A stretch of DNA of 54,513 nt from Girardia tigrina (GCA_001938485.1 MQRK01253783.1:4482-58994); one strand, 5' to 3'; positions 2,431 to 35,400 are shown, counted from the first letter of the stretch. Numbers and translations are program-made. The notes: a model not told the origin generated them from the sequence alone.

Positions 2431-5400
2431 ATGGAATTCGATAATTCAAGTATGTTTTGATTGTTTTACATTTTTTAATAACTGGTGTGACGAAACTCTA
2501 GATTTTGAAGCGAATTTTGATTTTGTAAAACATTTGATTGATAAATGCAGCTTTTTTTCAATTGATACGGAATTGACGGGACTGCATGAAGGCAGCGTTA
2601 ATTTCTATGACACACATGAAATGCGCTATAAATTCCTTAGAGACAATTCCATGCAGTACACAATCACCCAAATGGGTATTTGTTTCTTCACGTACTGCAC
2701 GGAAAAGAAACGGTTTTTTTATTGAATAATGACAAAAATTTAATTAATATTTTGATTATTTGATTTTAATGAATGTATTAATAATTTTGTTAAATTAATT
2801 ACTATTTTATTTATTTAATTATTTGAATTAATATTTTTTAAATAAATTAATTAAAATAATAATTATTTGAATGAATTAAATAATATTTTTATTTCTTAAA
2901 TTAATTAATAATTATTTTTATTTTTTAAGTAAATTAATTTAAATAATTATTGTATTAATTATTTAATTAAATAAATAATAAATTAATTATTTCATTAAAT
3001 TAATTAATATTTAACTTATTTGATTAAATATATTACTATTTTAATTAGTTTTCAATATCATCCAATTAATTTCCAATTACGACCATTTTCATATGAGATG
3101 GGAAAAGGCGATTTCAATCTCAATCCACAAACAATCGAATTTCTAAACAAAAACAATTTCGATTATAATCGATGTTTTCGTGATGGTTTTTTTTCAATCA
3201 ATTTTTTCTTTATTTCCTGCAAAAATAAATTCAGGAATACCTTTTTTGAGTTTATCGGACTATGAACGGAAAAAGGAATTAATTGAATATGAAAAAAAGG
3301 GAAATCTCTCGCGATTATCGATTGATATCGATCCTGCAAAATATTATCATTTAATAGATTTAATGTAACATTTTTTTCAATACGAATGATCGACGAAGGG
3401 TTACAGTTCTGTGTTTGCTTCCAGAATTTCTCTTTATACTTACAGATTTTAAATGATTTTTATTAACAAAAAAATATTTTTTCCGTCAAAATAACTATTT
3501 AATTATTCAGCGATATTTTTTATTTCATGTCAAATAATTACGTTTTAAATATTCGAAAATTTCAAGCATGTTTTTATAAAAACAAAAATTTAATAATCAA
3601 GAAATGTTGATTATTAGATTTTTTTAAAAAAAAACTAATATTAAAAAAGAGCGATAGGCGGTGTGAGGAATTAGTTAATTTTATATCGCTAGCAAATTTT
3701 AATAATTTGGAAATTGTATGCATTAAAATGAGTTTACAAATGACGTTCGTATAAACGAATCTATAAGCTCATTTTAATATCAGAATAGATAAATAAATAA
3801 AAACAATTAAATTATATATAAGCAAACTATATTGAGGAATATTAAATAAACTTCGATATTTAGATAGGGATATAATAAACAAAATAAAACCCAGATTTCA
3901 TCCATCTTTCTTTCAAACATCTTAACGCTCCACTTACAATACGGGGATAGTGTAATTTCTGTACCAATGTATAATATTTGTATATGTATATATTTATAAT
4001 TACTTATATACATTTACCCAATTATTTATGTACTCTTATTTGGTGACCAGACAATTCGACACATGAATGAAATGAAATATTTTCATTGTAACTAGATATT
4101 TTTTTAATCTTGATATTTTTAATAACTAGATTTTTATTTTGGCATAAAATTATTGCGTGAATGAAAATCATTTTTTTTCAGAATTTCTTTGAAATCGAAT
4201 TTGAAAAAAAATTATAAAACTAAAATTTTTTTTCCGAAATAATTGGGATGAATTTATTTCAAAAGTTCTATCAGACATATTTATAATGTGTGTCAGACAA
4301 ATGAACGGATATTTAAGAAACAGAGGTGAAAAATATTGTTTTATAAAAGTTAGTGCCGACTTATAACAGGTTAAATAGAGCTTTACAAAAAATCCATAAT
4401 TTCCGAGGAAGTAAATTTCTTATTCAATATTTGGATGATTCGATATACTTGAATAATCTTCGTGAAAAAGAAATCGATTGTTTATGAAAAATAATATTTG
4501 ACCTCTAGCATCTCTGATACAAAGAGAAAGTTCACACAGATCTTAATCATTAGTACACACCTCATTTAAACTCGTTTTACTTTATTTAAAATGTTAATAC
4601 AATCACCAGTGAAGTTATTTTTAAAATTGGTGGAAATATGTATCCTGGAATACTTCAATAGTGTCCATATTATGGAGCCACTTTTTAAATTATTTATTTA
4701 AATTCATCGGCAATGGCGCCAATAATCTCACTAGTCACACCAATAAAATTATTTAATATAGAATTATGTTGTGATTAAACTTTATTACTCGTCAGCACGG
4801 TTGATGTATTCAGAGGAGCTGTTTTCATGAATTTATAAAAAAATACTATTGATTAAGCAAAAACAAGTATAATTCAAAATTATTTAGTATAAAAGTGTGT
4901 ATATTGAAAGTATTAAAGCAATTACTTGTATACATTTTAAAGCAATAAAAATGTTGTCCAGAAAGATTATAAATTTATATAAATTCAGATAGAGATAATA
5001 GTGGCGAATAATTCAGTAGGATAAGTCATTTATTATAATTGAATTCATTCAAACATAACAGTTACTGTTACATGAAAGCAACTGTAAATACTTTATTCGA
5101 TAATTCTATCATTCTTAAATTTGATTAATTTTACTCTCCCAAAGGGTAATTTTATTTACGATTTAATAGTATTAAAATTAGAAAATACTTTGATTTTTGT
5201 GATAGTTCGATTGTTAAATAATTATAAAAAATTATGTTATTGTTTTGTCTAAGCCTTCTAGAATTGTTCGGCAGCAAAAATGCGTCAGTAGAGTATATCG
5301 GAACTAAACTAGCACGGGCCATAAGAGTACAAATAAATTTGAATATGGGTTACTTAGCATTTTTAATCTCATAACTTGTTAAATGTAGTTAATTTACTTC

Positions 5401-8400
5401 ATATTCATGGAATACACATTGTCCTTTTATTAAATAAATTAGGATATTTTTCAATCTAAATTTAAAATTAATTTAATTTCAATATAAGTTTACTTTTAAA
5501 CTCTTGTGACAAGGAAATTTAAATCGTGTAAAACTGTGAAACTGCTCCCTCTGCGACGAACCCCACATTGGGAAAGACTGATTTAAATAATGATAATATC
5601 AGAAATATTCTTTCACATCAAAGGCCGATAACAGAACTGTAACCGCCGGATTTATTGTTCAATTAATTTTCAAATCCATTTGACGACAGAAATCGGTGCG
5701 AACAGTTTCTCGAAAACGACTCTGAGCAGGAATTTACAATCGATATTCCCTCGAAATCATTCGATAGACATTTGATTCTCAACGAATTATGGAAAAGGTT
5801 GATTAACTTATTTTCAAAACATCGATCAATGTAAATAAAACAGAGTCGGTTGCATTAACGGAAAATACATTTCTCTCATACAAGAGAAAGATGAAACCAC
5901 TTCGAAAACGATAATCAAAATCAAAAAATCGGATAATAAAAGATTAGAAATTGAACAGGAGATAACGGAAAAGTATTCGAATAGACAAGTAAATTAATAA
6001 CGATTGTTGTTGGAGCGTAATTAATTATCGATCGGAAAATCAATAATTGGCAGGCAAATGCAGAGACTCCTGCGAAGTTTTCGAAACTGATGAAATATCT
6101 TTGCGATTCGGTAAACGATTTATTATTGTATTAAGGGATTTCATTTCCGGTTAGAAAAAAGTCGTCGTCATTCATAATGGACTTTTGGATTTGATGCACT
6201 TCTATGACAAATTTCTGGAGCCACTTCCTAATGTGAGATTTGATTTATTTTGACCGAAAAAATCACATTATTAAAATTTAAGAAAAATATGAAATAAATA
6301 AAGAATATGTTACATTTGCGAAAGTTATAAAAATGTTTAATTACATATTTCTAGATTTAAATTTCAAACTAATATTCGAATTTTGATTATAATAAACGAA
6401 AAAAATAAAGACGAAAAATATGTGTACTTTTATATTGTTAAGATAACTCACACATTTGATAGAACATTTATTACATTCACATTTCTTATCATCTTTATGA
6501 TGATCAATAGTATTGCTTTCACTTAGATTCATCAATCAATTTTCAATATCTCTCATTATAATCTGAACTAACTTGAGAAAATTATTTTATTTAAAAATAT
6601 TTACTTTAAATTTTATTGGCTGAAATAAAATATTTTTATAGTCATTTTTTAATATTAATTTAATTTTAATTATTTAAAAATTTACAAAAATAAAATCAAT
6701 GAAATTATTTAAAAGTTACAATAATAAAAATTAAAAATTTGAATATTAAATCTAAATTTAAATAAATTAGTTTCAGATTATAAGAAATTAAATATTGATA
6801 ATCCATCTGGTTAGGAGAGACATAATCCCAAATCAAACTACAACATTTAAACATACAAACACTAAACAAAAACATCCACACACCAAATATTCCTCACATA
6901 TATATTGCGTATCAAAACATTGAAAAACAGTAAAATTCAAGATCATCATTTAAAGAGAATTGAAAGACTTTTGAAATCTTTTCGGACTAAAATGTAACGT
7001 AAAAGGTGGGAATATTTGGTAAGAAGAAAAATTGTAAAGTAATTTTATGCGTAACGTTTTTCTTTACGATTGTATTTTGAATTTTCACAATTTTATGTAA
7101 TTTTTTAAAACTGAAGAGTTTCTAAATTTTTACAAGAATAAAGTTTGTAATTAAAATTTTAAATGATTTTGTATCTTTATTACGAATACAGTGTATGATT
7201 ATGTATGGAATATCATAAATGTCCGTTCATTTGTCTGACACACATTATAAATATGTCTGATAGAACTTTTGAAATAAATTCATCCCAATTATTTCGGAAA
7301 AAATTTTGTAGTTATATAATTGTTTTTTTCAAATTCGAATTTTAATCTTTTTCAAATTTTGTTAAACCTTTTCTTTATACTTTATTCTAAAGAAATTCTG
7401 AAAAAAATGATTTTCATTCACGCATTAATTTTACTTAAAGGATTATATTGCTACTACACTTTTTTTTACACTTGTACGGTTCCTTCTTGGGTTTTTTTTT
7501 CAATTGGTATTTTATGTATGTACTGGTTCTTCTCTGTTTTGAATTGGGGGTCTTTATTCAAAATAGTTTTGTCCTTTGGGTTTTAGTCGTGCGACCATTT
7601 TAAAAATTTAAATAAAATGAGTCGCTATTAAAATATAATATATATCATTTTTATCTCACATTTTATTTTGTTTTTGCAATTTATTGACGTAAACTAATAT
7701 TAATTGAAAGCTTCGGTAAAATTTTCACTAATGGATGAAAACAATTTCGAAATTTAAGGAAACCTAAAAAAATCGAATAATATTAATATATAATAAAATT
7801 TAATTAAATCAATAAAATGTGATGCTTTTTCTTCGTTTCTTTTTAACTAATCGTAGTTGTTTAATTTTATATTCTACAATTCTACTGTAAACATTTCATT
7901 AATCTATTCTTGTATCTTTATTACGAATACATTGTATGATTATGTATGGAATATGGTATCCTCTACAAGACCTCAGCATCTTTACTGTTACATACAAATA
8001 CTTGTCTAAATTTTACATGACCGTTACATAAACTTGGCTGAAATTCGTTCATATAATTATGTTTATTGTCGAATATCCAGCCAATGTATTTTTTAATTCA
8101 TGAATTGTTTATAATTAATAAAATAAATTGTCAAAAGAATTTATTTCCGTTTTCGACATTTCCTTAAACTATGTGAAAATTTATTTCTCGTGTTTGAAAT
8201 AATCGATGAAAATTAATCTTTCATTTAGGAATATGAAACATTCAAGGGAAAAATTAATGAATTATTTCCAAAGTGAATTTTTTTTCAATTAGTTTTTGTA
8301 TAATAATCGATGGGTTGTAGAATATTCGACACAAGATATATGTTTACGGATGAAAAATTTAAGGTGAATTTCCCATCATTATTTGAATAAGTTAATTTGA

Positions 8401-11400
8401 TGGCAAAAATTAACAGGAAATGAGAACATTTAACCTGGAATCTCTTTATGCTTTGACTAAATCAGAACCATTTGTCAGTCCTGACCTTCGTAAGGAGTTT
8501 TTTATTGGATATTATGAAACAGTTTAAATTTATAATATCCGGGCACATTTAAATATCTCTTTGGTGATATGTCATTTCAGTGAATTATTGAACGATTAAA
8601 TCCTTGTTATAATACAATCAATCTCATAAGTTGTTCAATTTTCATCTTCATTTTATGTACATGTGGAAGTCTAAATATATTATTGAAAAATTATAGTTCT
8701 TTATGTACATAAAATCAAGATGAAAATTGACCTGGTGATGAAAACGTCTAGAAATTTGTTACCTGTTTTAAAATTCAAGTCCAAACATTTTGTTTTATAT
8801 GTGTGTATTTAACCGTCTAGTAATAGTGCTGTTCTAATAAGTGTTGACTGAGCAATTATTTTCCTAATTTGAAGGGTCACAAAATTTAATTTTATTTCAA
8901 TATTTTTATTCTGGGTACATAAAGGAAACACTTATGTTTACATTTTTTAAATTCTTTTTATCTTTACATTTTTTTTCAAAATGACATCCATCAACTTCTA
9001 CAGACATACCTTCTACAGTGTAAAATCTGCACGCATCACATAGGAAGTAATCTTTCACAAGGCTTCAACGCTGAACTCATCCAAGTAGTCACCAAAATTT
9101 TCCTACCACTTTGAGCTTTATTCGGTTCTTGATCAAAAGACGTTATCATCAACACAGAACTTTATTTCTACCACAATTTGAGTTTTTTTAAACAAATATT
9201 TCCGAGTGAACTTTTGCACTTTCTTTTTACACAAACCATTATAAATAAGAATTGCTATAAATATAAATATGGTTATTGTATTTTTTACGAATTAAAATTC
9301 TATACTTTTTTTAATAAAAAATTATAAAGGGAATTATAATTTTGTCACAAAGATTTTGTTGCGTCTTTTATTAAATTTCAATTTCATTGTACCTTTAAAT
9401 TTACCTGTTTCCCAATTAAATTTCCCAATTCTATACAATTGCATTTTTCATTTCGTTTTCATAATAGTTTTAAAAATTACTTTGGATTTAATAATACTTT
9501 GAAAATAGAATTTAAAATCGCAATTTCGTTTATTTAACAACTTTTAAATTACCCTTTTTTTACTTAAAAATAAAATTATATTTCCATTAATAATTACGTT
9601 TTCCAAAATAAAATTAAAATCGCATTTTCATTTAAATCGATTTACGTGTTTTACAATAATATTTTGATTCCAACTACAATTTCCAGAAAAAAGAAAATTA
9701 TAATTACATTTTTAATTTACTTCGATTTAATCGTGTAAAATAAAAGTTACAAAAAATAGTTTAGTTTATTTTCATTTCGCAAATAAAATATTAAACTTTA
9801 TATAAATTTTGATTTTATTTCAATTAAATATTTTCATCAAATTTGAAATTAAAATTTTTTACTTTGTAATAAATCTTTGCATAAATCTTTTAATAAACCT
9901 ACCGTAAAATTTATTTTATTTCTTACATGAATTAATTTTTACATTAAATTTCTGAAAATCTTATTTTAACAAATCTATAACAATATTTTACGGAATGTAA
10001 TTGATTAATTAATAATTTGATCAGATTGTAAATTCAAAAATTTTATGAACTCAACAACGCCCCCAACAAGCTTAAATGCCTGATGCATACCAAGTAGAAT
10101 TTTGTTTTGTGTCGTCCTCTCGAAAAGCGATTTCGAACTACCTCAGATCACAATTTGTTCTTTACCTTGTTTGCATGATTATTTTTTGCCTTTTCAGATA
10201 TTTGTTTGGTGTCCTGTATCTTGGAGACTCCAATATTGGCCAAGTTTCTTACTAAGTTTGCAACGGTTGCCATATTTCTCTGGATCATGTCATTGGTGTA
10301 CTGAGTTTTCCTCTTGTTTCTCTTGGTCTTCTTACGGCCCGAACCTAGTTGGTTTTTCTTGATTCCTGTTTATTCTTATTTTTTATATCGCGGTTCGCAG
10401 TGTAAGTATTGTGAGGAGCAGGTACACTCTTAAATTTTTTGAAATAATTAATTTTTATAAATAATTTCTAAAATAAGAAAATATCTAAAATCAAAAGTTT
10501 TTCTAAATAATTATAATTAAAATATATTTAATTAATTTTTAAAAAGTTATTTTCAAGAATAATTTATTTTTAATTACTAAAATTTCAGTTGGAATGAATT
10601 GTTAAATAATTGATTTAAAAAATATATATAAAGTCAAGGAAAATTATATATGTATTACATTAATTTTAAAAAGTTATTCTCAAACAATAAATTAATGGAT
10701 TTTTAATTGATGGAAATGTAGTTTTTAAAAACAGATAATTTTTAAATATTAAAGTTGTTGGAAATTCTGTAAATTAATAATTTGACAAATAAATAAATTT
10801 TTTAATAGCTTTTTAAAAATAAAACAAACATTAAAAATTTAATAAATTTTAGAGTATAACAATAAATTTAAATATTCTAAATTATTTTTTTGTATTTAGA
10901 GTATATAAATATTAACTGGGTTTTAAATTAAATATTGAATTAAGAACAATTAAATTGATAGAAATCGTTGTAAATTAGCTAAAATGTGTTGTAAGAACGA
11001 TGTACAATAAAAATTAAGGTGTGTAAATCTTATAATGTATTTTAAAGAAATTATATAAAATATTAATAATTTAATGTAATCAAAAAAATAATAAATTCCA
11101 TTTTAAATTAAGGTTTTTAGTAAATAACTTGTCAGTATTTATAATCCAATATTTTTACGTATAATTAATCTTGTCAAAAGAAAACAAAAGAAAAGTTCCT
11201 CAAGAAAAATAGTTTAAATAATTGTTATTGTTATAGAAATAAAATTTTATCTTGATGAATTCTAATCTTTATAAAGAACCCAACAAATAATATCCAGACA
11301 TCGCATACTTTCTAAATAACTACTCTATCAAATTCCGTTTCATATTTGACTAAAAAATAAAAATAAAATTTATTTATAAAAAGTGTTTAAAACAATATTG

Positions 11401-14400
11401 ATTGTTACATTGATTTAAGGACGCTTTGTATACGAGGAGTGGTCGATAAATATCCGTTTTTTCTAAGAAAACACTTCTTTCTACAAGAGATTTCCTTTTA
11501 GCAGTATAAACTTCGTCTAACTATTCTTTAATATTTCGATTCTCAGAAAAAAAAGAATTCTGGTAACCCTTAAAATGGGTCTTTGTTTTAGTGATGATCT
11601 CGCTATTCTAACCTTTTCACTGAGCCATTCTTTTGAAAAGAAATAATAATGGAATTGGGAACAATCAAGAGAACATGACTGATGGGTTGAGAAATCGTAA
11701 CTAAATTTGTATAATTTTGTAATTTCCACAAATACGATCGATTTCGCTTAAATTTTTGTCGAATCGGTTCAACAGGTCTGCATAATATACGCTCGTGATC
11801 GTTTTGCATTTTTCACGGTTATTGATGTAAATTATACCGTTCGCATCCCAAAAATATGTTCATGAATTTGTTAACCAAACAAGCACCTTAACTTTATGTG
11901 TACTTCTTCACTTGTTCTTTGGTATTTGCTGTGTTTTATTGTATCGATGTTTTGTCTATGGCTACGAAACAATGTAAAAAGTCTTTCTGATCGCGATTAA
12001 TTATGATCAAATTCTTTTCAAAAGGTTAGACAATTCAGTTTGTTGTTGATAGCTGACCGAGATCATCAAAATTCCAAATATTCATGTCAAATGTCACGGA
12101 CATTTAGTCAATCGTCGATCGTAGATTATCATTCCATATACTTTATCAAATATTTTTTGCGTGGTCCTAATTTAGGAGGCTAAGACACTTATCACTTAAA
12201 ATGCTAGTCACCTCGTTTAAATTCATCTGTCCAAGATTTTCTTGTTAATATATAAGGCTAAGAGGTCCCATCGTTCAATTCAGTTAGGATTTAATCTTTC
12301 CTTTTTTACAAAAATAAGTATTCAATCACGGCACGATATTCGTTGTTATTTATTTGTGTAAAATACAAAGCGTTCCGTTTGCAGTGACTGGTATATGCAA
12401 CCTACGTGATTACCAGAGTGAAAATTGGAAAGTCACCATTTGAAGACTAGTATTAAGTTGTGTAAAAACATAATTTCAGTCTTTTTCCTTGAGGGAAATT
12501 AAAGGTCGCAGTAAGTTATTAAATTGGATGTATTAAAGTATTTAATATTTAAATATTTAATATCACAGATCAGTTTAATAAACGGTGTTTCAAGATAGAT
12601 TATCAAATGTTTTCTTAAGGTTTCAGGAAATATTTGAAAATGTTGTAATGTATTGCTCCCGCAATCCATAAAATATAAAATTCTTAAAAATCATTATCAA
12701 GTTTATTCCTTATTTCTATGATCAGAGAGAAAATTGGCTTCCTATTTTATAAACCACAGTGATATATGCTGAACGAATGATTTACTTAAGAGATATACCC
12801 TTTATTTATTTTGTATTATCTCAGTCAATTTAATTCATCTTAATCTTCTACACTTGATAATTATCTCCTTTCCATTGCATATCAAAAATAGAATTATAGA
12901 TAAATTATCATGTCAGACTTTTTTAGTTCAATAAAGAATAGTTCGTCTATTATAAAACAGGATCCAAGAGCAAATCTGCATTGTCTATCATTAGTTATTA
13001 CATATTAAACATTTAACTACAAGACATTTGTTTTTAGTACTGGATTCATTAGGAGAAGAGTATAATTTCTCTGAAAACCAATCATTCCACAACGCACATT
13101 ATGATGCCATGATTACAGGCAAAGTATTCATCAGTTTAGCAACAAATTTGAGTAACTGTTTTTGTGCGATAAGCAAATTTTATTTATATAAACTAATACA
13201 GATAACAATGATGTTGAGTTTTGGAATAGAGAGACATTCGATATTCCTCCGGTTTTAACTAAGCATCTTAATCGGTAGTTTTGATATTATAATTAATATT
13301 TTATTTCAGAAATTTCTAGAGTTAAAGTAGTCAATGCAGATATAATTTCATTAAATTTAAATCCCGGCTCTTCTGAAAGTATAAATTAGTGTTAGATTTT
13401 ATATTTGGTTTACGATTCGCGTTGTACAGATGAATGTGTAAGGAATCGAGTGTTCGTTATGACGATTCCCACCGACTGGGATAAGCACGACATCATAGTC
13501 TATCTTGCTGAAACACTGAAAGGTAAAAAATGAAATCTTCAATGGAAATTTTTTTTAATACGTGTCATAGAATCCGAGGAAATGTTATATGAAGATTTGG
13601 AAATAAAGTGGCTAAATTGCTCGTCACTTTGTATAAAGATTCCTATTTACATTGATCTTAATGAGGGTTAATGTTTATTTTATTTTATTATTTATCATAT
13701 GCTACCGGGATGTTCCGAAAATAAGCACACCCAAAAAGAAGCGGATCTGCGCTGATTTTTTGCTTCCATATTGTGCGGGCAGGTTCACTCTTTAAATCTT
13801 TGAAATAATTAATTTTCATGAAGAATTTCTAAAATAAGAAAATATCTAAAATCAAAAGTTTTTATAAACAATTACAGTCGAACCTCTATTTAACAAAGTG
13901 GAAGGGACCAAAAAATATTTCGTTAAATTGAGGTAAGTCTTTTTTCTATGCGATATCAGTGGCCAGGTTGATAGCTATTCGCTAATTTAATTGTAATTAG
14001 GAACCCTCGATAGTTTAATTAAATTTCATGTTCTCATAAGTGATAAAAAAATAAAAAAAGGTTTTGTGGATTAAGGTGTGTCCACTAAAAAATTGCACAA
14101 GTTTTAAAACCACCATAACTTTTTAATGTAATATTATTTAATTTCGTAAATTTGGAATTTAAATATTTGTTTAAATAGGTTAGAAATAGTAAAGCAGGTA
14201 TTTAAAATTTTTGGTTTAATATGTTTTATTTTAGAGACAATTTTAATGATTTCAAAACGACATGAAGATATAATCAATTTTTTCAAAACGCACAGTAAAA
14301 GTGAGACTGTGGCAAAGTTTACTGGCATTCATTTTTCCAGAAGAGGTATATATGCAATAATACAACGCTATGAGAAGACCGGTAGCATTGAAAGAAAAGT

Positions 14401-17400
14401 AGTAAGTGGAAGGAAACCTGTTAAAATGACGACAGACAAAAGGAAGAGACTTCTGCAGCGTGCAACTTTGACTGTTGGAAAAAGTGTGAGAAAGTTAGGT
14501 ATAGAAATGAATGTTTGAAAGTCTTACGTGCATAAGATGCTCAAGACTAATAACATAGTGTTTCGAAAGAGGAAAGAAGCCCCAAAGGTTACTCCGACAC
14601 AGATTATTCGCCAGAAAGCCAGGTTGCAAAATCTCGCTAAAATTGTTGTGGAAAAGACCAAAACCGACTTTGTACTTGATGATGAGTTGTATTTTACACT
14701 CACCGGAGCAATGACATCGGGTTATTATGTGGACCAAAAGAAGTTCGGTGATGTACCTGATAATATTCGCCTTAAATTTCGAGAGAAATTCACAGTAAAA
14801 GTTTGGGCAACTGTTTCCAGACGAGGTATTTCAAACCTGTACATCAGGAAATGGAAATCTGTAGCTTCTAATTCGAATATTTATATCTCCGAGTGCTTAA
14901 CGAAGCGTTTGCTTCCTTACCTCAATGAAAAATACCCAGCTGGTCACTTCATCTTCTGGCCAGATCTTGCTTCTTGTCACTACGTCAAAGCAAGTCTGAA
15001 GTGCTTAGAGGACAACAAAATTCAATTTGTCAAAAAAGATTTGAATCCACCTTGTGCTCCCCAAATACGCCCAATTGAAAAGTTTTGGGCTCATTTAAAG
15101 GAGAAGGTGTATGAAAAGGGTTGGACTGCCGATTCTGAAGACCNNNNNNNNNNNNNNNNNNNNNNNNNNNNNNNNNNNNNNNNNNNNNNNNNNTTTAGGA
15201 CATTATTTGCAAATTTTAGACAAAGAATAATGCTTGCTAACTCTTATGGCCTTAGTAGTTTGATATAATAAAATAGTTATTGTGTTATTATGATCTAGTC
15301 TTTGTTCAGATTTCCGTCAATTTGAAGGTCTAATTAAAAAGTTATGGTGGTTTTAAAACTTGTGCACTTTTTTAGTGGACACACCTTATTTATTTAACTA
15401 TAGCAGCACAAGTACTGATCAGAATGAGGGGACATTACATGTAATACAATGTCATCATGAGATAAAATCTGTGATTTTTGTCTGCTGTTGAAAATTTGCA
15501 CGTTGTTGACCAATAATTTGTTCAAGTTCATCAATTTGTAGGCTATCAATCCCCCACTGGTTGCAAAAGGAACGTAGAATATTAATACTGTCAATTGCCG
15601 CAGCCAGAGTAATAGGAGGTTTTTCGACGTTCATCATATCGACACATTCGTCCGACTCTCTAACAACCTACTTTCGTTTATCTGTTCCACTCATGTTTGC
15701 ACAGACTAGCACTGTTAGACGAACCTTGCTTTTCTTTTCCACAAAACATGTTTCTCCTTTGAAGGCAAGAGTGCGCGATGGAAGCAGTTTGTAGAAGAGA
15801 CTTGTTTCATCAGCATTGTATACGTCTTCAGGCGAATAGCGATGTAGATAAGATGGAAGGATGTTCTTAACTCAGCTTTCACCAGCCGGTGAATCTGCTG
15901 ATGTAGATTCTCCACACATGGCTTTGAAACTTCTCGATGTATCCATTATTTCCTTTGAATTCTTTCATACCAAGACTTTCAGCAAATTTCTTTGCCTTGG
16001 TTGCGAGAAGGGGTCCATTCACTGGAACATTTTTGGAACGCTGCTGAGTAAACCACAAAAGGAGAGCTTGTTCCAAATCATCGCTAGTTACCTTTTTAAT
16101 ACGCTTTAACTCTGAGTCACCAGATGTTTAGGACCACTTAAAAGTTTTGAAATTTTCAAGTATTTTAAATATCTGAAATTTTTCAACGCGGCATTGACTT
16201 TCGTTATACAGGTTAATTTATACCTAAAATTTTTGTTCGGTGCAGGAAAATGCTTTGTTAAATAGAGGGAAAAATATATGAGGATTTCTGCCCTCCTAGT
16301 CGGGACAAAAAATTTGCTTCGTTAAATAGAGACTTCGTTAAATAGAGGTTCGACTGTATAATTAAAAAAATATCTTTAATTAATTTTGAAAAGTTATTTT
16401 CAAAAATAATTGAATTTTATTTGCTAAAAAACTTAAAATGAAATTAATTATGAAATAATTGATTTAAAAGAAATATATTGAGCCAAGGATAATTATGTTT
16501 TGTATTAATTTTAAGTCATTCTGAAAAATAAATTAATGAAATCTTTATTGCCAGAAATATAATTTAAAAAAAACAGATAACTTAAATCTTAAAGTCAGTT
16601 TGAAATTCTGCAAATTAAAGATTTGATAAATAATTAATTTTAAACAGTTTTTGTAAAAAATAAAAATAGCCCTTACAAATTTTATAATTAATGAATCGTA
16701 ATAATAAATTTAAATATTGTAAATTATTTTTTGTATTTAAATTGTATAGATAATAAAGGATTTTTAATTAAAAAATTGAGCAAACACATTGAAATAAGTT
16801 TAAAATAATAAATATATTTTGTTAAGTTACTTAAAACATGTAAAAAAATGAAACGAAATAAATCTTTAAAATAATTTTGGGTAATAAAATGTTTTTTTTT
16901 AAATTGAAATATTGATAATAAATAAAACGTTAAAATATTTTATTAATTAAAACGTTTTTACAAATAAAATAACATTAAACTAATTTTAAAGTTTAAAATT
17001 TTTGAAATTTAAAGTTCACCAAAAAGAACCCCCTAACATCAGTATTTATATTCCCATATTTTTGTATATTAAGAATCTCGTCAAAAAAGAAAACGAAAGA
17101 AAGTTCTTCGACGAAAAATTGTTTAAATAATTGTTATTAGTGTTAGAAATAAAATTTGGTGTTAATGAATTATAATCTTGATTAAGAACCCAACACACAT
17201 GAATTGATCAAAACAATAATTGGTCGATTTCGAGGTAAAAATGGCAGTTTCCAACAGTGAGCTATTATTTTTTTGATCAGTGCTCATGGATGCAAAAAAT
17301 CAGCGTAGATGCGCTTTGTTGGGTTCTTGATCTTTGCTTGCGATTGGAAATTTTGCTGGAAAACCGCTCCTTTATGATTTGACAATTCAATCCGCTTTTC

Positions 17401-20400
17401 TTAAACTTCATAGCTCAGTTTAACGAGTTGTTGAAGTAATCGCTTGATTCCTCTGTCATCGAAACAAACTGACATCATAATCTTCTCTTGGTGAATTTTG
17501 GCTTTTTGTGTCATCTGAAATGATTCATCTTGCGTCACCTATGATCTTTTCAGGTTAACGTTTTAATAAACTATCCACTTTTTGGTTCAAAAAACCAAGA
17601 GCCTCATCTGTTATTAACGGCGATTAGTAATGGAATGTCAATCGTTTGTTTATAAATAATAGCCAAATATTTAGCCACTTTGGAACCAGTAATCCAGACC
17701 CTTCAGTCTCTAGAATTAGATTTACAAGATTCTCATCAACACTTTTAGCTGAAGTGTCTTAAGCTTGTTGCAGCTAGAAAACTGTCCAGTATAGTATTAG
17801 TACGTGGACTTGCGATTCAGTACCAAAAGGTAACGTTTTCCTGATAGGTATTACGGAAACGTATAAGCGGGGTCCGTAAAAGTCTTAAGTTCTCTTTAAT
17901 AAAAAAGTTAATGACCCGACAAAGATGTTTTAAAATTGCTAAATTATTTTCTTTAAAAAGTTTACATTCGAATTATATTATTTTAAATTTCTTTATAAAA
18001 TAAATTACAGAAATATTATTTCACCAAAGTGTCTGATAGTATTCGAATGTCAATCTTTGCTTTCCAACAATAATTTAAATGATATTGTCTTAAATTTCTA
18101 ACTTGATTGATTTTACAGTGAGCAAAAAAAGTATGGAAACATGAGATTATAATTTTTTATTTCGTTCATTATTTTTCTCTGAAAGTGGTATAAATCTTTC
18201 CTTAAGTGCTTTCTGGTACAGTTTTAGGTGAGCTTTCCAACGGTATAATAAGCAGCAAGATACATAATTAATATTTTGTAGGATATGCACCAGCATTCAA
18301 AGCTGCTTGACAACGACGTGGCATTGAGTGCACAAGGCGTTCACAAACGCTAACAGGAATCTCAAACCAAATTTCCCGTATTTTTTTCATACAACTGATT
18401 TGCGTTCGAGAAATGATGAGCTCCAAGACATCTTCCGGTTTTAATCCTGAAGATGTTCAATTGGAATGAGGTTTGGCGACTGTGATGGCCATTTCAGGAC
18501 ATTGATTTTATTCTTCTCAATCCACTCTGTTAGGAGTTTTGATGAATGCTTCGGATCATTGTCCTGTGGAAATATCCATTTTCGAGGCATTTGCACTCTG
18601 GTATATGTCAATATTGCTTTTTGAAGGATGTCACGATACATAAATCGATCCATGATGACATTGATCTGCATTAGGGTATCTGTTCCAGATCTTGAGAATG
18701 CTCCCCAAATGAGTATATTTCCACCTCCATGCTTGGCGGATTGTACTTTTCTCCATTTGAGCGCATATCTTTACATCGTCCATCGGAACTAAATAGGTTG
18801 AAGTTTGATTCATAAGACCAGATCACAGTAGACCAGTGCTGTGTAGTCCAGCATATATGCTCTTTTGTGAAGGCAATTCTTTCCCGGTGATTCTTAACAG
18901 AAACATAGGGCTTTTTAGCCGGTTTTGCGTGCATGAAGTCCAACACTCTTTAGACGGTTTCGAATAGTTTGTTTACTCAAGTGGTGAAGGTTCAAACTGT
19001 CTTGAATGGCTTTAGCAGTTAAGAATGGTTTTTTTGGCCTCTTTCACAATAGTTCCATACATGCGTTCGCCTGTTTTACGAGATCAAGTAGGGGGAAAAT
19101 GTATGTTCTCCCCACATGACCCCCCCCGTAACTAGTTACCGCGCGGTTATTATGGCAACGTAAGCAGTTACCGCGCATGGTTACCATAGCAACAGTCGCG
19201 GTTACCATGGCAACGGTCGCGATCACCTTAGAAACGATTCTGATTGGTCGATGGTTCCCTAGCAACGGTCGCGATCACCATAGCAACGGTCATGGTTACC
19301 ATAGCCTAGGCAGCAACCGTTCCGGTTCACTTGGTGATGGTAACCACGGGCTTTGTACTTTTAATTATTGATTGATGGTGACTTTATATATGGTGGGGAG
19401 TGGGGAGTGATTATATATTATTTTTACTTATATATAAGAAGTAATAAAGGGGGTAATATTAGTTATATATNNNNNNNNNNNNNNNNNNNNNNNNNNNNNN
19501 NNNNNNNNNNNNNNNNNNNNATAAGAAGTAATAAAGGGGGTAATATTAGTTATATATTATCATTATATATTATCTCCCCACTCCCCACCTATATTAATCT
19601 CGGCCCCGATCGATATATCGATTTTTTATTGATTCTTTGGTATTAATGAAAAATTTACTAAGTCAATAAAAAAAAACAATTTCTCAAAAACTTATATTCA
19701 ACTCAAAAAAAATTGTACTTTTAATTATTGATTGATGGTGACTTTATATATGGTGGGGAGTGGGGAGTGGGGAGATAATATATAATGATAATATATAACT
19801 AATATTACCCCCTTTATTACTTCTTATATATAAGTAAAAATAATATATAATCANNNNNCACTCCCCACTCCCCACCATATATAAAGTCACCATCAATCAA
19901 TAATTAAAAGTACAAAACCCGTGGTTACCATCACCAAGTGAACCGGAACGGTTGCTGCCTAGGCTATGGTAACCATGACCGTTACTATGGTGATCGCGAC
20001 CGTTGCTAGGGAACCGTCGACCAATCAGAATCGTTTCTAAGGTGATCGCAACCGTTGCCATGGTAACCGCGACTGTTGCTATGGTAACCGTATGCGGTAA
20101 CTGCTTACGTTGCCATAGTAACCGCGCGGTAACTAGTTACGGGGGGGTCATGTGGGGAGAACTTATATTTTCCCCCTACTAGATCACCCACATTTTTTTA
20201 CATCTTCAACGCATCCACAGCTTTGGTACTTTAATTATTTTAATAACAGTACTGCTCTGCACTCAGAAAGCCTTCTCAATGTACATTTTCTTCATTTCAC
20301 CATTCATAAAGAGGTTCACCATCCTTTTTTGAAGATCGCTTGACAAAACTTTCTTGTCGGCATGGTACTGCTGTGTTGAAATAGAAGTTCGTTCAAAATA

Positions 20401-21567
20401 AAAATGAAATGAGAAATTTGTGACACTGCTAATATAGTATTGTCGAAAATTCCAGAAAATAAGCATTAATTTATGCAATTGATTAATTGATTTTTCCATT
20501 TAGTTTCAAATAATGTTTCCATACTTATTTGACCCAAAATTTGGGAAATTTATCATTAAATATAGTAAAAATGTGTCTCAAAACCATTGGAGGGTTTTGC
20601 TTATTATACCGTTGGAAAGCTCATCTAAAACTGTACCAGAAAGCACTCAAGGACAGATTCATACCACTTTCAGATAAAAATAATAAACGAAATAAAAAAT
20701 TATAATCTCATGTTTCCATATTTTTTTTGCTCACTGTATTTATTTATTAACAAAACGTTATTTTTAACTGAGATTTTTCTTTTTCTACGTCTTTGTACGA
20801 GTGGTGTCCCAAAAGTTCGCGGACTGATAAGTAACAACAAATTCAAAAAGTTTATTCCAGTTAACAAAATTGATCAATCCTCATCAGAATCGCTATCGAA
20901 CTTTTCAATATAATCACCATTCAGTTTCACACACTTTTCCCATCTCTCTGTCAACTTCCTAATACCATTATCAATGAAAATACGCGGTGCCTCCGCAATA
21001 CACGCACTTGAATGATTGACCTCCAATGATTGACGCCTTGTCTGGAATCGTTACACCCACTTAAAGACAATCGGTCTTCCCATTGCGGCATCACCAAAGA
21101 CACACAATATCTGCAGTTGGGTGTCTTCCTTCCAGAGGAAATAGATGATTGCTCGTTGAGATTTCACTGCCTCTTCCATACTAACTACAAGAGAGAAAAA
21201 TGACAAAATAATACACTCGTATGTCACACTCATGCCGACGGACAGCCAATGAGAGTTCACCTCAAATTAGTTGGCTCCCCCTTATGTCATCGTACACACA
21301 CCGCGCGTTACAGTCACGCACGCACGTGACCACGCCGTATTCTCTCAATCCGCGAACTTTTGGGACACACCTCGTAGTTTGCGTGGAATTTCTCTATTCA
21401 TCACACATTTATTACTTGAACAATTTTCAGTTCCAACCGAATCAGTTGATCAAGAATCACCAGTGAAAATTGTTCCATTTTACAAATATTTACAAGTGCA
21501 GGACACCGAATCCGATCAAATTGACGAAGAGGGTTTTGTTTTAAAGAAACGAAGACGACGGCATTAA
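2431..21567 (+). CDS. PARN: Poly(A)-specific ribonuclease PARN-like (CAF1/DEDDh nuclease + R3H-like + RRM), copy 1; 17 exons, 538 aa
   Basis: GT-AG reconstruction, all phases consistent, 1617 nt: 2431-2449, 2502-2712, 3049-3185, 3235-3364, 5690-5797, 5844-5988, 6054-6110, 6155-6232, 8229-8272, 8321-8363, 8417-8489, 13038-13151, 13202-13274, 13320-13378, 13430-13522, 13571-13666, 21431-21567. Motifs: MEFDNSNFE..FFSIDTELTGL, QMGICFF, FLNKNNFDYNRCFRDGIPFL, HNGLLDLMH, FPKIFDTRY, FHNAHYDAMITG (all DEDDh residues present); RRM-like IPTDWDKHDI/IKWLN; basic C-terminus KKRRRRH; no C-terminal TM helix (argues against PNLDC1). Confidence 0.9.
4154..4315. repeat. Dispersed repeat; inverted copy at 7216-7424
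   Basis: ~160 bp reverse-complement match (ccgaaataattgggatgaatttatttcaaaagttctatcagac...). Confidence 0.85.
6436..6898 (-). mobile_element. Gypsy solo LTR with 5-bp TSD
   Basis: TG...CA ends; TATAT at 6431-6435 and 6899-6903; similar to the LTRs of 22565-26246; near-copy at 45980-46367. Confidence 0.85.
7216..7424. repeat. Inverted copy of 4154-4315
   Basis: Reverse-complement match with an extra ~45-nt segment. Confidence 0.85.
10410..11285. mobile_element. Probable solo LTR, second family
   Basis: TGTG...CAACA ends; colinear with 13772-17195 after removing the nested insert; TSD not clean. Confidence 0.55.
11433..12480 (-). pseudogene. Highly degenerate mariner remnant
   Basis: TA-CGAGGAGTGGTCGATAAAT mariner-like terminus; SHQSCSLDCSQFHYYFF resembles decayed HPPYSPDLAPSDYYLF. 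Right end approximate. Confidence 0.6.
13875..16356 (-). mobile_element. Tigger/pogo transposon, degenerate, carrying a nested DD37E element
   Basis: TIR CAGTCGAACCTCTATTTAAC at both ends, TA TSD; LEQALLLWFTQQRSKNVPVNG (CENP-B HTH), IYNADETSL, QTKITDF. Confidence 0.9.
14074..15386 (+). mobile_element. Tc1/mariner-superfamily DD37E transposon; one in-frame stop
   Basis: ~54-bp TIR AGGTGTGTCCACTAAAAAA..., TA TSD; ORFs 14246-14518 and 14528-15268 are in the same frame; VLDDELY / FWPDLASCHY / RPIE with 37 residues between D and E. Confidence 0.92.
18116..20736 (-). mobile_element. Tc1 (DD34E) transposon, degenerate, ~135-bp TIRs
   Basis: CAGTGAGCAAAAAAA TIRs, TA TSD; VIWSYESNF, FPQDNDPKH, WPSQSPNLIPIEH. 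Confidence 0.92.
19087..20180. mobile_element. Non-autonomous Polinton/Maverick-like element (long TIRs only)
   Basis: AGTAG...CTACT termini; exact 6-bp TSD AGATCA (19081-19086, 20181-20186); TIRs >400 bp; no credible ORF; contains two N gaps. Confidence 0.75.
20798..21374 (-). mobile_element. Internally deleted mariner
   Basis: TIRs (..GTGTCCCAAAAGTTCGCGGA), TA TSD; QRAIIYFLWKE..VFGDAAM..VFKWV N-terminus joined to C-terminal remnant. Confidence 0.85.
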
Positions 21568-29471: not shown

Positions 29472-32400
29472 ATGGAATTCGATAATTCAAGTATGTTTTG
29501 ATTGTTTTACATTTTTTAATAACTGGTGTGACGAAACTCTAGATTTTGAAGCGAATTTTGATTTTGTAAAACATTTGATTGATAAATGCAGCTTTTTTTC
29601 AATTGATACGGAATTGACGGGACTGCATGAAGGCAGCGTTAATTTCTATGACACACATGAAATGCGCTATAAATTCCTTAGAGACAATTCCATGCAGTAC
29701 ACAATCACCCAAATGGGTATTTGTTTCTTCACGTACTGCATGGAAAAGAAACGGTTTTTTATTGATTAATTACAAAAAAATAATTAATATTTTAATTATT
29801 TAATTAATTTAATAAATATTTAAATTATTTTAAATAAATTAATTAAAATAATAATTATTTAAATATAATAATTATTTAATTAAATTAATATTTTTTCTTG
29901 TTTAATTAAATTAATTATAATTTTAATTGTTTTATTAAAATAATTAATATTTTACTTATTTGAGTAAATTATTTAATAATATTTATTAGTTTCCAATGTC
30001 ATCCAATTAATTTCCAATTACGACCATTTTCCTATGAAAAGGGAAGAGACAGTATTTCTATCGACCCAAAAACAATCGAATTTCTAAACAAAAGTGGATT
30101 TAATTTTAGTCGATGTTTTAATGACGGTTTGTTTTATTAAACAATTTTTTGTGTACTTGGTTATCGGTCCTGTATTACTAATTTTCTTTTACCCAATGAT
30201 GTTTACGGCACCACAAAAATGAACAATAATAAAAATTTCAATATACAATAAACAATTTCCAGTATAGTTCCGTAGCCGCCCAAGTAAATATAAAAATATA
30301 ACAATAAATAAAATATTATAAGCACACCAGGAAGAATATTTATTTAAAATTTTTAAAAGTAACCGAATAGTAATCTAAAATAAATACATTGTTTACGCGA
30401 TCACGAACTTCTCTGACTTATTTTATGTATATTTTTTAATTAAATTTGTTTTTTACCATTTTTAAAAAACTTTTTCTTATTTTTGTATAGAAAAATTAAC
30501 TGAAAATAATTTAAAAAACAGAAAAAATTATTCAATTTTAAGTATAGCAAAATTTAAATACAGTCACCCACACTATTGTACCATTTCTATATTGTGCCCC
30601 CTCATACATCGCCATTTTTTAAAAATTGTACATATTTTAATAATTAAAAAAAACACTTACGAATTGACGAATTTTAAACTGAAATACTACACTGTCTAAT
30701 AAAAATTTTAAATTCTTTTGACATTAATTAATATTTTAAAAAATTTATTTGCGTAATGAATTTTTGATGGATTGTATCAATTTCTATCATTTCTAATTAA
30801 AAGCCAAGAAAGTGCAAAATTTTTATCTTCTATCCAACCATACCAATACCCGGACATTCATAAAACGCCAAGACTCCAAATGGAAAGAAGAAGAGAACTC
30901 TCTTAAACCGGTATGACCCATAACCAAATACAACAAACGATTTTTTTGTTTATTCTCCCTTAAAAACTAATTTTAGGAATACCTTTTTTGAGTCTTTCGA
31001 AATATGAAATGAAAAAGGCTTTAATTGAATCTGAAAAAGAGGGAAATCTCTCGAATATATCAAATGATATCGATCCTGCAAAATTTTCTCGTTTAACAGA
31101 TTTAATGTAAATTTTCTTTTTCTAGACGAATATTCGTCGGAGGGATACAGTTCTGTTTTATTCCTGAATTTATCTTTTTTTTACTTACACATTTTAAATG
31201 ATAATATGTATATTTATGTATTGATTTTATTTAGGTTTTGGTATACATATAATTAATTGCACATCTAATATTTAACAATTATTTTTAACATCAATATCAG
31301 TTCTTAAATCATTTGTTAAATGAGAACAAATTGCATCCAATTCAAGTGTCATTGCATGAAATAAAAAAATATTCCAATATGATGGAAATCAACTATTGTA
31401 AACTGTTATTATTAATATTTTCATAAAATCAGAATAAAAATCCGTTAAATTATAAATTTTTAACTGAAAGAGATATTGACGTAATGAGCAAAGTATTTTA
31501 ATTGATCAAAAATCATTGAAACTGTGATAATGAAATGAGCATTCTTTCGCAATGAAGGTCGATAACAGAACTGTAACCGCCGGATTTATTGTTCCATTAA
31601 TTTTTATATCGATTTGACGACAGAAATCGGTGCGAAAAATTTCTCGAAAACGACTCTGAGCAGGAATTTACAATCGATATTCCCTCGAAATCATTCGATA
31701 GACATTTGATTCTCAACGAATTATGGAAAAGGTTGATTAATTTATTTTCAAAACATCGATCAATGTAAATAAAACAGAGTCGGTTGCATTAACGGAAAAT
31801 ACATTTCTCCCATACAAGAGAAAGATGAAACCACTTCGAAAACGATAATCAAAATCAAAAAATCAGATAATAAAAGATTAGAAATTGAACGGGAGATAAC
31901 GGAAAAATATTCGAATAGACAAGTAAATTAATAACGATTGTTGTTGGAGTGTAATTAATTATCGATCGGAAAATCAATAATTGGCAGGCAAATGCAGAGA
32001 CTCCTGCGAAGTTTTCGAAACTGATGAAATATCTTTGCGATTCGGTAAACGATTTTCTATTGCATTAAGGGATTTCAATTTCGGTTAGAAAAAAGTCGTC
32101 GTCATTCATAATGGACTTTTGGATTTGCTGCACTTCTATGACAAATTTCTGGAGCCACTTCCTAATGTGAGATTTGATTTATTTGGACCGATGAATTATC
32201 ATTATTTGCAATAAAAAAATCATTACTCATTGAAAAAATTATGTAGATCTATTAAAATGATTGCGAAAGTTTGTGCCGATTCGGAATTAAATTCAATGAA
32301 TATGAAAATTTAATAATCATTTCTTATCGCCACCATTTCCCAAAACTGTCTCATCGTTTTACAAGTTTCTCGATTTCTGGCACCTTCGACGGAATTTCGA

Positions 32401-35400
32401 CCATTTAAATTATGATGTAGTAATGGAAACCGAGTAAAATCTGAAGAGACAAACTGCTTGGAATACGGTGGGGGCTGCAGGATATTTGCTGTAGCTTTTT
32501 CCTGTTGTAGAATCACGCTTTTTCGATAACTACAATGTTTATGTTTAGCTCGAAGGTTTTAATTTAATTTAATTTAATTTAATCGCACCGCTTAGGTGTA
32601 GTTAAATCAAATGCAAGAAACGTCTCTACTTTCAAATAGATGTCTTGATGACCGGACTGAGTCTACCTTCGCTTCGTCACGGCGAAGAATTGCACTCTCT
32701 TACAGTGTGCAACTAGGGGTTTTGACTGCTCGTGTGTTAAGCAGTGCCTTCTCTAATTATTTCCTCGTCAGATATATAGAGGAGATGTTGGCTATAATGC
32801 TTGGCGCATATTTCAATATTTCGCTTTGCAATTCTGGTCACATATGTCTTAACTTCCTCGTCATTCCATCCAGTGACGTGAAGTAAGATTGTGTTACACG
32901 GGTACAATCTTCCAAGGCATCCGACGACGAAGGGAAAAATCTTAACTTCTTTCTTGTGGAAGCGTTCTATAAGATCCATTTGGACATCAAGGTAATGGTC
33001 ACAGGCTCTTGTATATGTGTCATCAAACTGTCCATTTGCGTCCCAGGGGCTTTTGACATCAATAATCCAAGAGTTGGGTCCAAGGTCGACATAAATGTCC
33101 ATAATCTTCCATGTTTTATCCAGGAAGGTGTGCGAGAATTCGGTAAAGACAGTGTTTTTCCGAACTTCTTGCCGAGGAATTTTGCGAGTTCAACCTTGAT
33201 CTTGTTGTGTTTGGACCTGGCAAAATCCATGGAGTAGTTACAATGGTTGAGGATATGGCTGGGGGTTTCTAGTTTTAATCCGCATTTTCTGCACTTGTTG
33301 GTGGTTTCGGGAGAGAAAAGGTGGTCGCGGTAGTTGCATTGGAGGAGATCTAATCGGGCTTTGTGGATGAAATACCATCCTTCAAAGGTGATCCATCCTT
33401 TCATGATTGATTTATTCAAGTATTCGTTGCTGGTGCTGACGTCGACCATTTAAATTATTATTTAGTAATGGAAACCGAATAAAATCTGAAGAGACAAGCT
33501 GCTTGAATACGGTGGGGGCTGCAGAATATTTGGTGTAGCTATTCCTGTTGTAGAATCACGCTTTTTCGATAACTACAATGTGTATGTTTCGCTCGAAGGT
33601 TTTCTTTTATTCGATGAGTTATTCACAGTCCTTGTCCGTAGAGCTTCCATTTCCCGGCCATATTCAGCATCCCGGGAAACGGGAATTTTCACAGCCTTTT
33701 CTCGACTCTTTCACTTTCCGTGGATGTCGGGTGGATAGTTTTAGGCTTTCTAGAATTTTTTTTACATTTGTTGTTATAGCTGCTTTTTCGAGCTTACTTT
33801 TTAAGTCACTTATCGAATGTACTAAAACTATTTCTTCACCAGCCTCCACATCCGCATCTTCCGTCGTAATTCCAACATCATCTGAATCACTTTCCTTTTA
33901 AACTTCAACAGTGGATGAACATTTTAAATTATTTATGATTTTCTGTGCAAAAGTTATAATTTGAACTTGTACTAGCTCTTTCAGAAAAAAATGTATTTGA
34001 ATTAATACACCAAAGCCCCGCTTTGTGTCTCTATTCGGTTCCGAAAGTTGAGACGCTAAATGAGTTTAGACGCATAACGAATATGTGGTAATATCGATCA
34101 GAAAGACTGTTACAATATGTCTATCTAAATAAAAATCAAAATAAAACAAATGTTTATCATGACATAGTACGAAAATTGCGCTCTTAATCCATTAAAACTA
34201 ATTAATAATATAAAATCAGTAAAAAGTGAGTGTGCATTATAAATGTAATTATTAAAACTTCTTTCAAAATCAAAATTTACTTTCTAAAAAATTTTTCCAA
34301 AGTGGTTTGTACTGCATTGTCTTTTTTTCCGCATAAATTTCTTTATAGCAGTTTATGCTACCCAGAACTGATCTGTTTATCCTCGAACTTCTTTCGTGAT
34401 TAGGGTCATCTTGATTAAATATCTGCAGAACTTGATCAATTAATTGAAAGGCTTGAGCTAAACGTTTCATCGTTAACGGTTGTTCTACGGCAATATCTTC
34501 GATTTTTTCCTCAGAATCACTACTGTGTGCTGTCTGAAATTCAATTTCCATTGATTGAGAAGTTGTTATCTCTTCATTGTGCGAATCCAATAGTTCTTCT
34601 ATATCTTCGACCTCCATTCCTTCAACTTGCAATGCGGATGCTAAGTCAACTATCTCTTTAGTTGCAGTTATCCTATCATTATTCGTGTCATTTTCCAATC
34701 GGCTATGTACACATTCCGGACATAATTTACGCCAACCGCTCATGCTTTTGTTGGACACTTCAATATGGCAAAAAATATTCAATAAATAAATAATGCAAAA
34801 AATATTTAATATATGTTGGACATTTTATATGACAAAAATAAAAAATCAATCGACGCAAAAGCGAATAGACGCATAGCGGGGCTTTGGTGTAATTGTATTT
34901 GCAAAAATAAAAATTTTATTTCAAAGATTAACAAGGTTGAGTTGGAGTTGATGTCGGAGTCGGTCAATTTTAGCCCGACTCCGCAGCCCTGTATTTTGAT
35001 GGAAGCTAAATTTGTGAATTTAAGACTTATGTTTACAAAAAGTTATTAAATGTGAAGTTTTGAAACAATCCCGGAATTTGGAAAAATTAACCAATTTACG
35101 CCGTCCGTCCTCATTTGAGGACGCTTGAAAAAATAAACATTCAGTGACTTGAGAAGAATGTTTATGAAATTTCTCAAGTTTTATCACGTCTGTATAAAGA
35201 AAGTAATGAGCCAATGACCTTAATTTGCTTAAATTAGACTTGAGATTTTGGGTTGAGATTTTACAGTCACTGCAATATCATATCTTAGTGCGGACGAGTG
35301 TAGTTGTTTCTGTTTCTAGATTTCTAGTTCCTGTTTAACAATTTTTAACACCAAAGTTTTTATAAATAAAAAGATATTTCTTTCTATTTTTAATTTAAAT

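What the first reader, a model, noticed from the sequence alone, without database searches (positions are those of the whole stretch)
3365..5689. Complementary arms near both ends of long intron 4, kept in both paralogs
Seen: GGTTACAGTTCTGT (3399-3412) is the exact reverse complement of ACAGAACTGTAACC (5631-5644). Copy 2 retains the pair with one mismatch (31143-31157 / 31564-31578), although its intron is 517 rather than 2325 nt with an unrelated interior. Pairing would leave ~80 nt between splice sites. Inference: an RNA bridge that lets a short-intron spliceosome handle long, TE-filled introns.
Basis: partly seen in the sequence, partly recalled or inferred. Interest (0 to 1): 0.7.

Follow-up and report, generated by a model that had tools for sequence, protein, structure and literature searches.

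The report
Transposon end relics bracket long introns
The matching sequences at both ends of this long intron are real, and about one long intron in ten in this animal has such a pair; they are most likely leftover ends of a jumping DNA element that first stretched a short intron, and any help they give to splicing is untested.

Summary
The 14-nt arms are confirmed. They lie in intron 4 of two tandem PARN-like paralogs, and RNA-type contigs join 3364 to 5690. The match is beyond chance (p about 0.001). It belongs to a real minority class: 5 of 61 long introns of unrelated genes carry equally strong end-to-end stems, against 0.64 expected (p=0.0002). About 90% carry none, including PARN introns 8, 11 and 16, so this is not how long introns are generally handled. 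Both other arm pairs I searched genome-wide are transposon terminal inverted repeats with 8-9-bp target-site duplications. One is copy 2's own intron 3 (453 genome hits vs 6 control; 49-nt empty site in copy 1). The other is a kinesin intron (14 vs 0; perfect 8-bp duplication). Intron 4's arms start with GG and are flanked by a decayed direct repeat (p 0.03-0.18), but no parent family was found. Retention in both paralogs is no more than inheritance gives, and G-U bias is not significant. Best reading: relic transposon ends sitting where a yeast-type zipper stem would; co-option for splicing stays open.

The parts
2431..21567 (+). PARN-like (CAF1 family) gene, copy 1; 17 exons, 538 aa
   Evidence: ORF reconstruction; Pfam PF04857 on exons 2 and 3; joints
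29472..46772 (+). PARN-like gene, copy 2 (tandem paralog); 17 exons, 538 aa
   Evidence: copy-2-type contigs
3365..5689 (+). Intron 4, copy 1 (2325 nt, GT-AG)
3399..3412 (+). 5' arm, copy 1 (likely left transposon end)
   Evidence: origin inferred
5631..5644 (+). 3' arm, copy 1 (likely right transposon end)
   Evidence: origin inferred
3391..3399 (+). Left copy of a decayed 9-bp direct repeat (possible target-site duplication), copy 1; 5 of 9 match to the right copy
   Evidence: not significant in copy 1 (p 0.11-0.18)
5644..5652 (+). Right copy of the decayed direct repeat, copy 1
31107..31623 (+). Intron 4, copy 2 (517 nt); part of the interior matches a dispersed repeat
31143..31157 (+). 5' arm, copy 2
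31564..31578 (+). 3' arm, copy 2
31135..31143 (+). Left decayed direct repeat CGTCGGAGG, copy 2 (6 of 9 match to the right copy)
   Evidence: p 0.03-0.05
31578..31586 (+). Right decayed direct repeat CGCCGGATT, copy 2
30127..30976 (+). Intron 3, copy 2 (850 nt): a short intron lengthened by a TIR element; the in-locus precedent
30152..30169 (+). Left TIR core of the intron-3 element (family with 453 genome matches)
30915..30932 (-). Right TIR core of the intron-3 element
30140..30148 (+). Left 9-bp target-site duplication AACAATTTT
   Evidence: 8 of 9
30936..30944 (+). Right 9-bp target-site duplication AACGATTTT
3186..3234 (+). Intron 3, copy 1 (49 nt): the empty site

Best explanation
The arms are likely the surviving outer ends (terminal inverted repeats) of an old cut-and-paste DNA transposon that landed in a short ancestral intron 4 before the gene duplicated. 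Introns here are normally about 50 nt (shown). The first insertion into such an intron must leave its two ends within a few dozen bases of both splice sites (follows from geometry). Later insertions and deletions replace the interior and erode the inner TIR, leaving a short GC-rich inverted pair 70-90 nt apart in effective distance (shown for two other introns, inferred for intron 4). The RNA helix is predicted to form, but as a by-product; splicing of long introns here does not generally depend on it.
For: (1) Precedent in the same gene: copy 2 intron 3 grew from 49 to 850 nt; its arms match a family with 453 hits vs 6 control. Other members have conserved sequence running inward from a GG-rich terminus. 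A 9-bp duplication is seen here (8 of 9) and in 2 of 5 other inward-facing pairs; removing the element gives 54 nt. (2) The strongest stem among 61 other introns (kinesin, C219643) has a perfect 8-bp duplication and 12 further family hits vs 0 control; removing it gives 45 nt, and a paralog has a 46-nt intron at the same position. (3) In the intron-3 case one arm departs from the family within a few bases of the 18-nt core, and in the kinesin case both do within about 30 nt, as a short arm like intron 4's would need. (4) Intron 4's arms begin GG and are flanked by a decayed repeat (6 of 9 in copy 2, p 0.03-0.05); removal gives 72-74 nt, inside the short-intron range (5-95%: 43-91 nt, n=139). 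(5) Enrichment stays on Watson-Crick-only scoring (6 of 67) and antisense scoring (5 of 67), as for a DNA inverted repeat. (6) The window holds several other TA-flanked TIR elements.
Against: No parent family was found for the intron 4 arm: 4 exact 14-mer hits vs 2 control, and 178 vs 325 with one mismatch. None of the 26 one-mismatch loci examined shared flanking sequence with it; one showed a loose inverted partner 289 nt away and one a local hairpin. The duplication is not significant in copy 1 (p 0.11-0.18). A perfect 14-bp core beside a decayed duplication is better preserved than even decay predicts. Five of the eight arm-bearing introns show no clear duplication and were not searched genome-wide. 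In the kinesin case both arms share one change absent from the 12 other family hits, which could be compensatory or a subfamily variant.
Confidence: 0.62

Rival explanations
1. Transposon-derived, then co-opted: insertions into short introns are tolerated better, and their outer TIRs kept by selection, when TIR pairing restores a short effective intron (a zipper stem).
For: The geometry fits the yeast zipper window (stem at least 10 nt from the 5' site, 42-85 nt linker; PMC12350175 passages) if the branch point lies about 25 nt from the 3' end (inferred, not mapped). G-U outnumbers A-C 10 to 4. Sense scoring gives 8 hits vs 5 antisense. 5' sites of arm introns are slightly weaker (0.35 vs 1.01 bits, p=0.10). 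The intron 4 core is perfect while its flanks decayed.
Against: G-U excess is not significant against the swapped-pair background of 0.59 (p=0.25). Both mismatches in the intron-3 TIR pair and the one in copy 2 intron 4 are uncompensated. About 90% of long introns lack arms.
Confidence: 0.22
2. A zipper stem evolved de novo by point mutation under selection for splice-site pairing, with no transposon origin.
For: No repeat family for the arm; stable predicted helix; known in yeast (PMC12350175).
Against: The same geometry is produced by demonstrable TIRs in the neighbouring intron and in a kinesin intron; a TSD-like repeat flanks the arms; no compensatory change is seen.
Confidence: 0.11
3. 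Chance complementarity inherited through the duplication.
Against: p about 0.001 per intron, and a class-level excess at the same positions.
Confidence: 0.04
4. A general RNA-bridge rule lets a short-intron spliceosome process long, TE-filled introns.
For: Short introns dominate (median 50 nt); end stems are enriched.
Against: 59 of 67 independent long introns (up to 19 kb) have no significant end stem; no length trend; arm-less long introns have stronger 3' sites than short ones (p=0.004), which points to ordinary signal strengthening.
Confidence: 0.01

Closest known systems
Non-autonomous TIR DNA transposons with GG termini and 8-9-bp TSDs: Merlin (PMC8101967, passages read) or Mutator (features recalled)
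   Same: Inverted ends starting with G/GG and an 8- or 9-bp flanking duplication, shown for the intron-3 and kinesin elements and suggested for intron 4.
   Different: No transposase was linked, so the superfamily is unassigned. The intron 4 arm is 14-15 bp, shorter than the 24-462 bp Merlin TIRs, and has no detected family.
Zipper stems of Saccharomyces cerevisiae introns, e.g. RPS17B (PMC12350175, passages read)
   Same: A helix joining a strand near the 5' splice site to one upstream of the branch point, leaving a short linker; present in a subset of long introns (32 of 88 in yeast).
   Different: Yeast stems are probed in vivo and RPS17B's is required for efficient splicing. Here nothing is probed, the fraction is about 10%, and the traceable cases are transposon ends.
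(AC)m-(GT)n bridging introns of zebrafish (PMC4691745, abstract and outline read)
   Same: Complementary sequences at opposite intron ends, in a minority class of an animal's introns.
   Different: Those are simple repeats with shown function and U2AF2 independence. Here each intron has its own unique arm, and pyrimidine content at the 3' end is no lower (0.65 vs 0.65).
Introners and euglenid or Fritillaria transposon-derived introns (PMC11282704, passages read)
   Same: TIRs and TSDs near intron ends; in euglenids TIR pairing brings the ends together.
   Different: There the element is the intron. Here it sits inside a pre-existing GT-AG intron whose splice signals lie outside the element.
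Repeat-derived stems in very large mammalian introns (PMC2773006, passages read)
   Same: Hypothesis that transposon-derived inverted repeats shorten long introns.
   Different: Those are many internal SINE/LINE pairs in introns over 50 kb; this is one terminal pair from one element.

Membership tests
TIR DNA transposon relic (intron 4 arms) | Terminal inverted repeats | tested here: met
   14/14 and 14/15
TIR DNA transposon relic (intron 4 arms) | Target-site duplication | tested here: inconclusive
   6 of 9 in copy 2 (p 0.03-0.05), 5 of 9 in copy 1 (p 0.11-0.18); an alternative TA|CAGT reading is also possible
TIR DNA transposon relic (intron 4 arms) | Other dispersed copies with the same ends | tested here: not met
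   an old or low-copy family could escape these searches
TIR DNA transposon relic (intron 4 arms) | Empty site in a paralog or ortholog | tested here: inconclusive
   both copies carry the arms; no third close PARN copy found
TIR DNA transposon (copy 2 intron 3 arms) | TIRs, TSD, dispersed family and empty site | tested here: met
Merlin superfamily | Terminal GG and 8-9-bp TSD | tested here: inconclusive
   family columns -2/-1 are G in 73%/62% of 37 ends; TSDs 9 and 8 bp; Mutator not excluded
Merlin superfamily | IS1595-type DDE transposase | not tested
   no autonomous element was sought
Zipper stem | [quoted passage not shown] | tested here: inconclusive
   34 nt from the 5' site and 45 nt from the 3' site; branch point not mapped
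Zipper stem | Helix forms in vivo and promotes splicing | not testable with these tools
   folding prediction only
Zipper stem | Signs of selection on pairing (compensatory changes, G-U bias, excess conservation) | tested here: not met
   small numbers, low power
Known structured RNA family | Rfam match | tested here: not met
   0 matches in the window at gathering thresholds

The most novel reading that the evidence does not exclude
In an animal whose introns are normally about 50 nt, DNA transposons that land in introns bring their own rescue: TIR pairing folds the insertion out and restores a short intron, and selection then keeps only the outer TIRs. About a tenth of long introns would thus carry transposon-made zipper stems, giving a route by which intron-definition genomes expand.
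Probability: 0.22. Interest if true: 0.62.

Novelty: new member of a known kind. Interest (0 to 1): 0.32.

Why it matters
As it stands, it is a caution with a measured size: in genomes with tiny introns and many DNA transposons, end-to-end intron complementarity arises as a by-product, so the usual test against shuffled end pairs comes out positive without implying a splicing function. If co-option were shown, it would link transposon ends to zipper stems and explain how short-intron genes survive large insertions.

Tried and rejected
General rule: rejected (59 of 67 independent long introns lack stems). A first sample of 28 introns showed no excess (2 vs 1.3, p=0.39); the excess appeared with 33 more (held-out mean p=0.0003). 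Composition artefact: rejected (own-composition shuffles expect 0.54; parallel-orientation control 1 of 61; shifted windows 0-1 of about 50). Of 155 long-intron calls from the spliced alignments I kept 64 (61 independent), by exon credibility and before scoring; the 91 dropped calls gave 1 hit, about the chance rate. Intron 2's complementarity is AT-only low-complexity sequence and was not counted as an arm. Tc1/mariner reading (TA|CAGT...ACTG|TA): possible, and such elements occur in the window, but it leaves three further complementary bases outside the TA unexplained. A shared CAGTTCTGT between the PARN arm and a myosin intron arm was not shown to be a family. Blast of the other arms against 1.4 Mb of fetched DNA found no arm matches except for the two known families (low power). 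No run was on record as RNA. Variation inside the arms in related samples could not be read, because 129 difference rows were not shown. Rfam: none. Other CAF1-family loci are too distant to give an empty site.

Full report
Observation. The window holds two tandem copies of a PARN-like gene (Pfam CAF1 on exons 2 and 3), each with 17 exons, 16 GT-AG introns and an intact 538-aa frame. Contigs from 3 of 4 runs laid join 3364 to 5690 at GT..AG, and introns 3, 5, 6 and 7 are confirmed too. The runs are only guessed to be RNA, and both paralog types appear in them. The genome is a 1.43-Gb AT-rich assembly of an animal with no close named relative: the best named CCT2 matches are molluscs and fish at about 76-80%. 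Several CCT subunits occur as very divergent copies, so old duplication or a mixed assembly is possible.

Is it chance? No. Against dinucleotide shuffles the end-to-end duplex has z -3.6 (copy 1) and -3.1 (copy 2), and against 5534 swapped end pairs p=0.0011. The helix is in the predicted minimum-energy fold of both whole introns, with pair probability near 1 in the 517-nt one. Introns 8, 11 and 16 show nothing significant. The two copies are one event: their intron ends are homologous for about 90 and 80 nt. The one change breaks a pair.

Is it general? I called introns in CCT, myosin and kinesin genes with a profile-guided spliced aligner. Of 155 long calls I kept 64 (61 independent) on exon credibility, before scoring. 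Short introns have a median of 50 nt (n=139). Five of 61 long introns exceed the 99th percentile of swapped pairs against 0.64 expected (p=0.0002); the first 28 alone were not significant and the 33 added later were. The excess survives own-composition shuffles, a parallel-orientation control and shifted windows, and the 91 dropped calls give 1 hit. With the PARN introns, 8 of 67 independent long introns have such stems, starting 12-36 nt from the 5' end and 28-74 nt from the 3' end, with no length trend. Arm-less intron 8 is spliced, since contig ends run from exon 8 into exon 9.

Where do such arms come from? Copy 2's intron 3 is 850 nt where copy 1's is 49 nt, and it has its own unrelated arms (z -5.7). 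That arm matches 453 places vs 6 for the control. Family members are conserved inward from a G-rich terminus and variable outward. Inward-facing pairs have 9-bp duplications here and in 2 of 5 other pairs, and removing the element gives 54 nt. The strongest stem in the outside sample, in a kinesin intron, is bracketed by a perfect 8-bp duplication and has 12 more family hits vs 0 control. It leaves 45 nt on removal, and a paralog has a 46-nt intron there. GG termini with 8-9-bp duplications are described for Merlin elements (PMC8101967, passages); Mutator is similar (recalled). No transposase was linked.

Intron 4 itself. Its arms begin GG and are flanked by CGTCGGAGG / CGCCGGATT in copy 2 (6 of 9; p 0.03-0.05) and a weaker version in copy 1 (p 0.11-0.18); removal would give 72-74 nt. 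Against this, no family was found: 4 vs 2 exact, 178 vs 325 with one mismatch, and no shared flanks in 26 one-mismatch loci. No third PARN copy offers an empty site. The transposon origin of intron 4's arms is therefore inferred by analogy, not shown. Five other arm-bearing introns show no clear duplication and were not searched genome-wide.

Selection for RNA pairing? The excess persists on Watson-Crick-only and antisense scoring (6 and 5 of 67 vs 8 on sense). G-U outnumbers A-C 10 to 4, but swapped pairs already give 0.59 (p=0.25). Arm introns have slightly weaker 5' sites (p=0.10) and equal 3' sites, while arm-less long introns have stronger 3' sites than short introns (p=0.004). One shared change in both kinesin arms could be compensatory or a subfamily variant. 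These tests have little power, so co-option stays open at about one in five.

Mechanism. Shown: short default introns, many TIR elements, insertion with TSD in two introns, loss of the inner TIR, end-proximal stems in about 10% of long introns. Inferred: intron 4 arose the same way before the duplication; its interior was later replaced independently in each copy (part of copy 2's interior matches a dispersed repeat). Predicted only: the helix forms in the pre-mRNA. Untested: any effect on splicing.

Known systems. It would work like a yeast zipper stem (PMC12350175, passages) or the zebrafish AC/GT bridges (PMC4691745, abstract and outline). TIR pairing across introns is described for euglenid and introner-type introns (PMC11282704, passages), and repeat-derived stems were proposed for giant mammalian introns (PMC2773006, passages). 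PMC8052449 was seen as a search listing only. Nine searches of the held library showed no paper on TIR relics at both ends of conventional long introns as a class; the library lacks most subscription journals and no supplements were read. One look-up of earlier scan notes (8 of 43 shown) had nothing on this feature.

Verdict. Real, non-random, one of a minority class, most likely a transposon footprint in zipper-stem geometry. Interest 0.32.

Noticed in passing
window 2431-21567 vs 29472-46772: Paralog identity is mosaic: exons 3-4 are 79-85% and exons 14-16 about 89-92% identical, while exons 1-2 and 5-13 are 97-100%. This suggests patchy gene conversion or local divergence. The depth of copy-1-type and copy-2-type contigs differs between runs.
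   Followed up: partly
G000, about 30 contigs: Many dispersed copies match only CCT profile positions 1-82, as if a gene start had been captured by a mobile element; a PARN-like N-terminal piece is similarly multi-copy and often broken.
   Followed up: no
G000 C248085, C94104, C253498; C234412, C237610, C225889: Three very divergent CCT8-like and two or more CCT1-like genes: old genome duplication or more than one organism in the assembly.
   Followed up: no
G000 C214194, C225480, C188385 and others: More than ten distinct kinesin motor domains are encoded without introns, alongside intron-rich kinesins; possibly a retrocopy expansion.
   Followed up: no
window 13874-16359, 14072-15388, 18114-20738, 19082-20185, 38852-39066, 45138-45745: Nested TIR elements, several TA-flanked Tc1/mariner- or pogo-like, in introns 16 and 11; the element at 13874 is shared by both paralogs, with a further Tc1-like insertion in copy 1.
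   Followed up: partly
window 4204-4318 and 7213-7327: A 115-nt, 94% inverted pair lies in introns 4 and 8 of copy 1, bracketing exons 5-8; it could favour skipping or circularisation of these exons.
   Followed up: no
window 2713-3048 and 29754-29989: Intron 2 is almost pure A+T with a 29-nt periodicity and self-complementary ends in both copies.
   Followed up: partly
L079 (G000 C195778, myosin intron 4072-5705 in my numbering): A 14-bp end-to-end stem shares the 9-mer CAGTTCTGT with the PARN intron 4 arm; no family link shown.
   Followed up: partly
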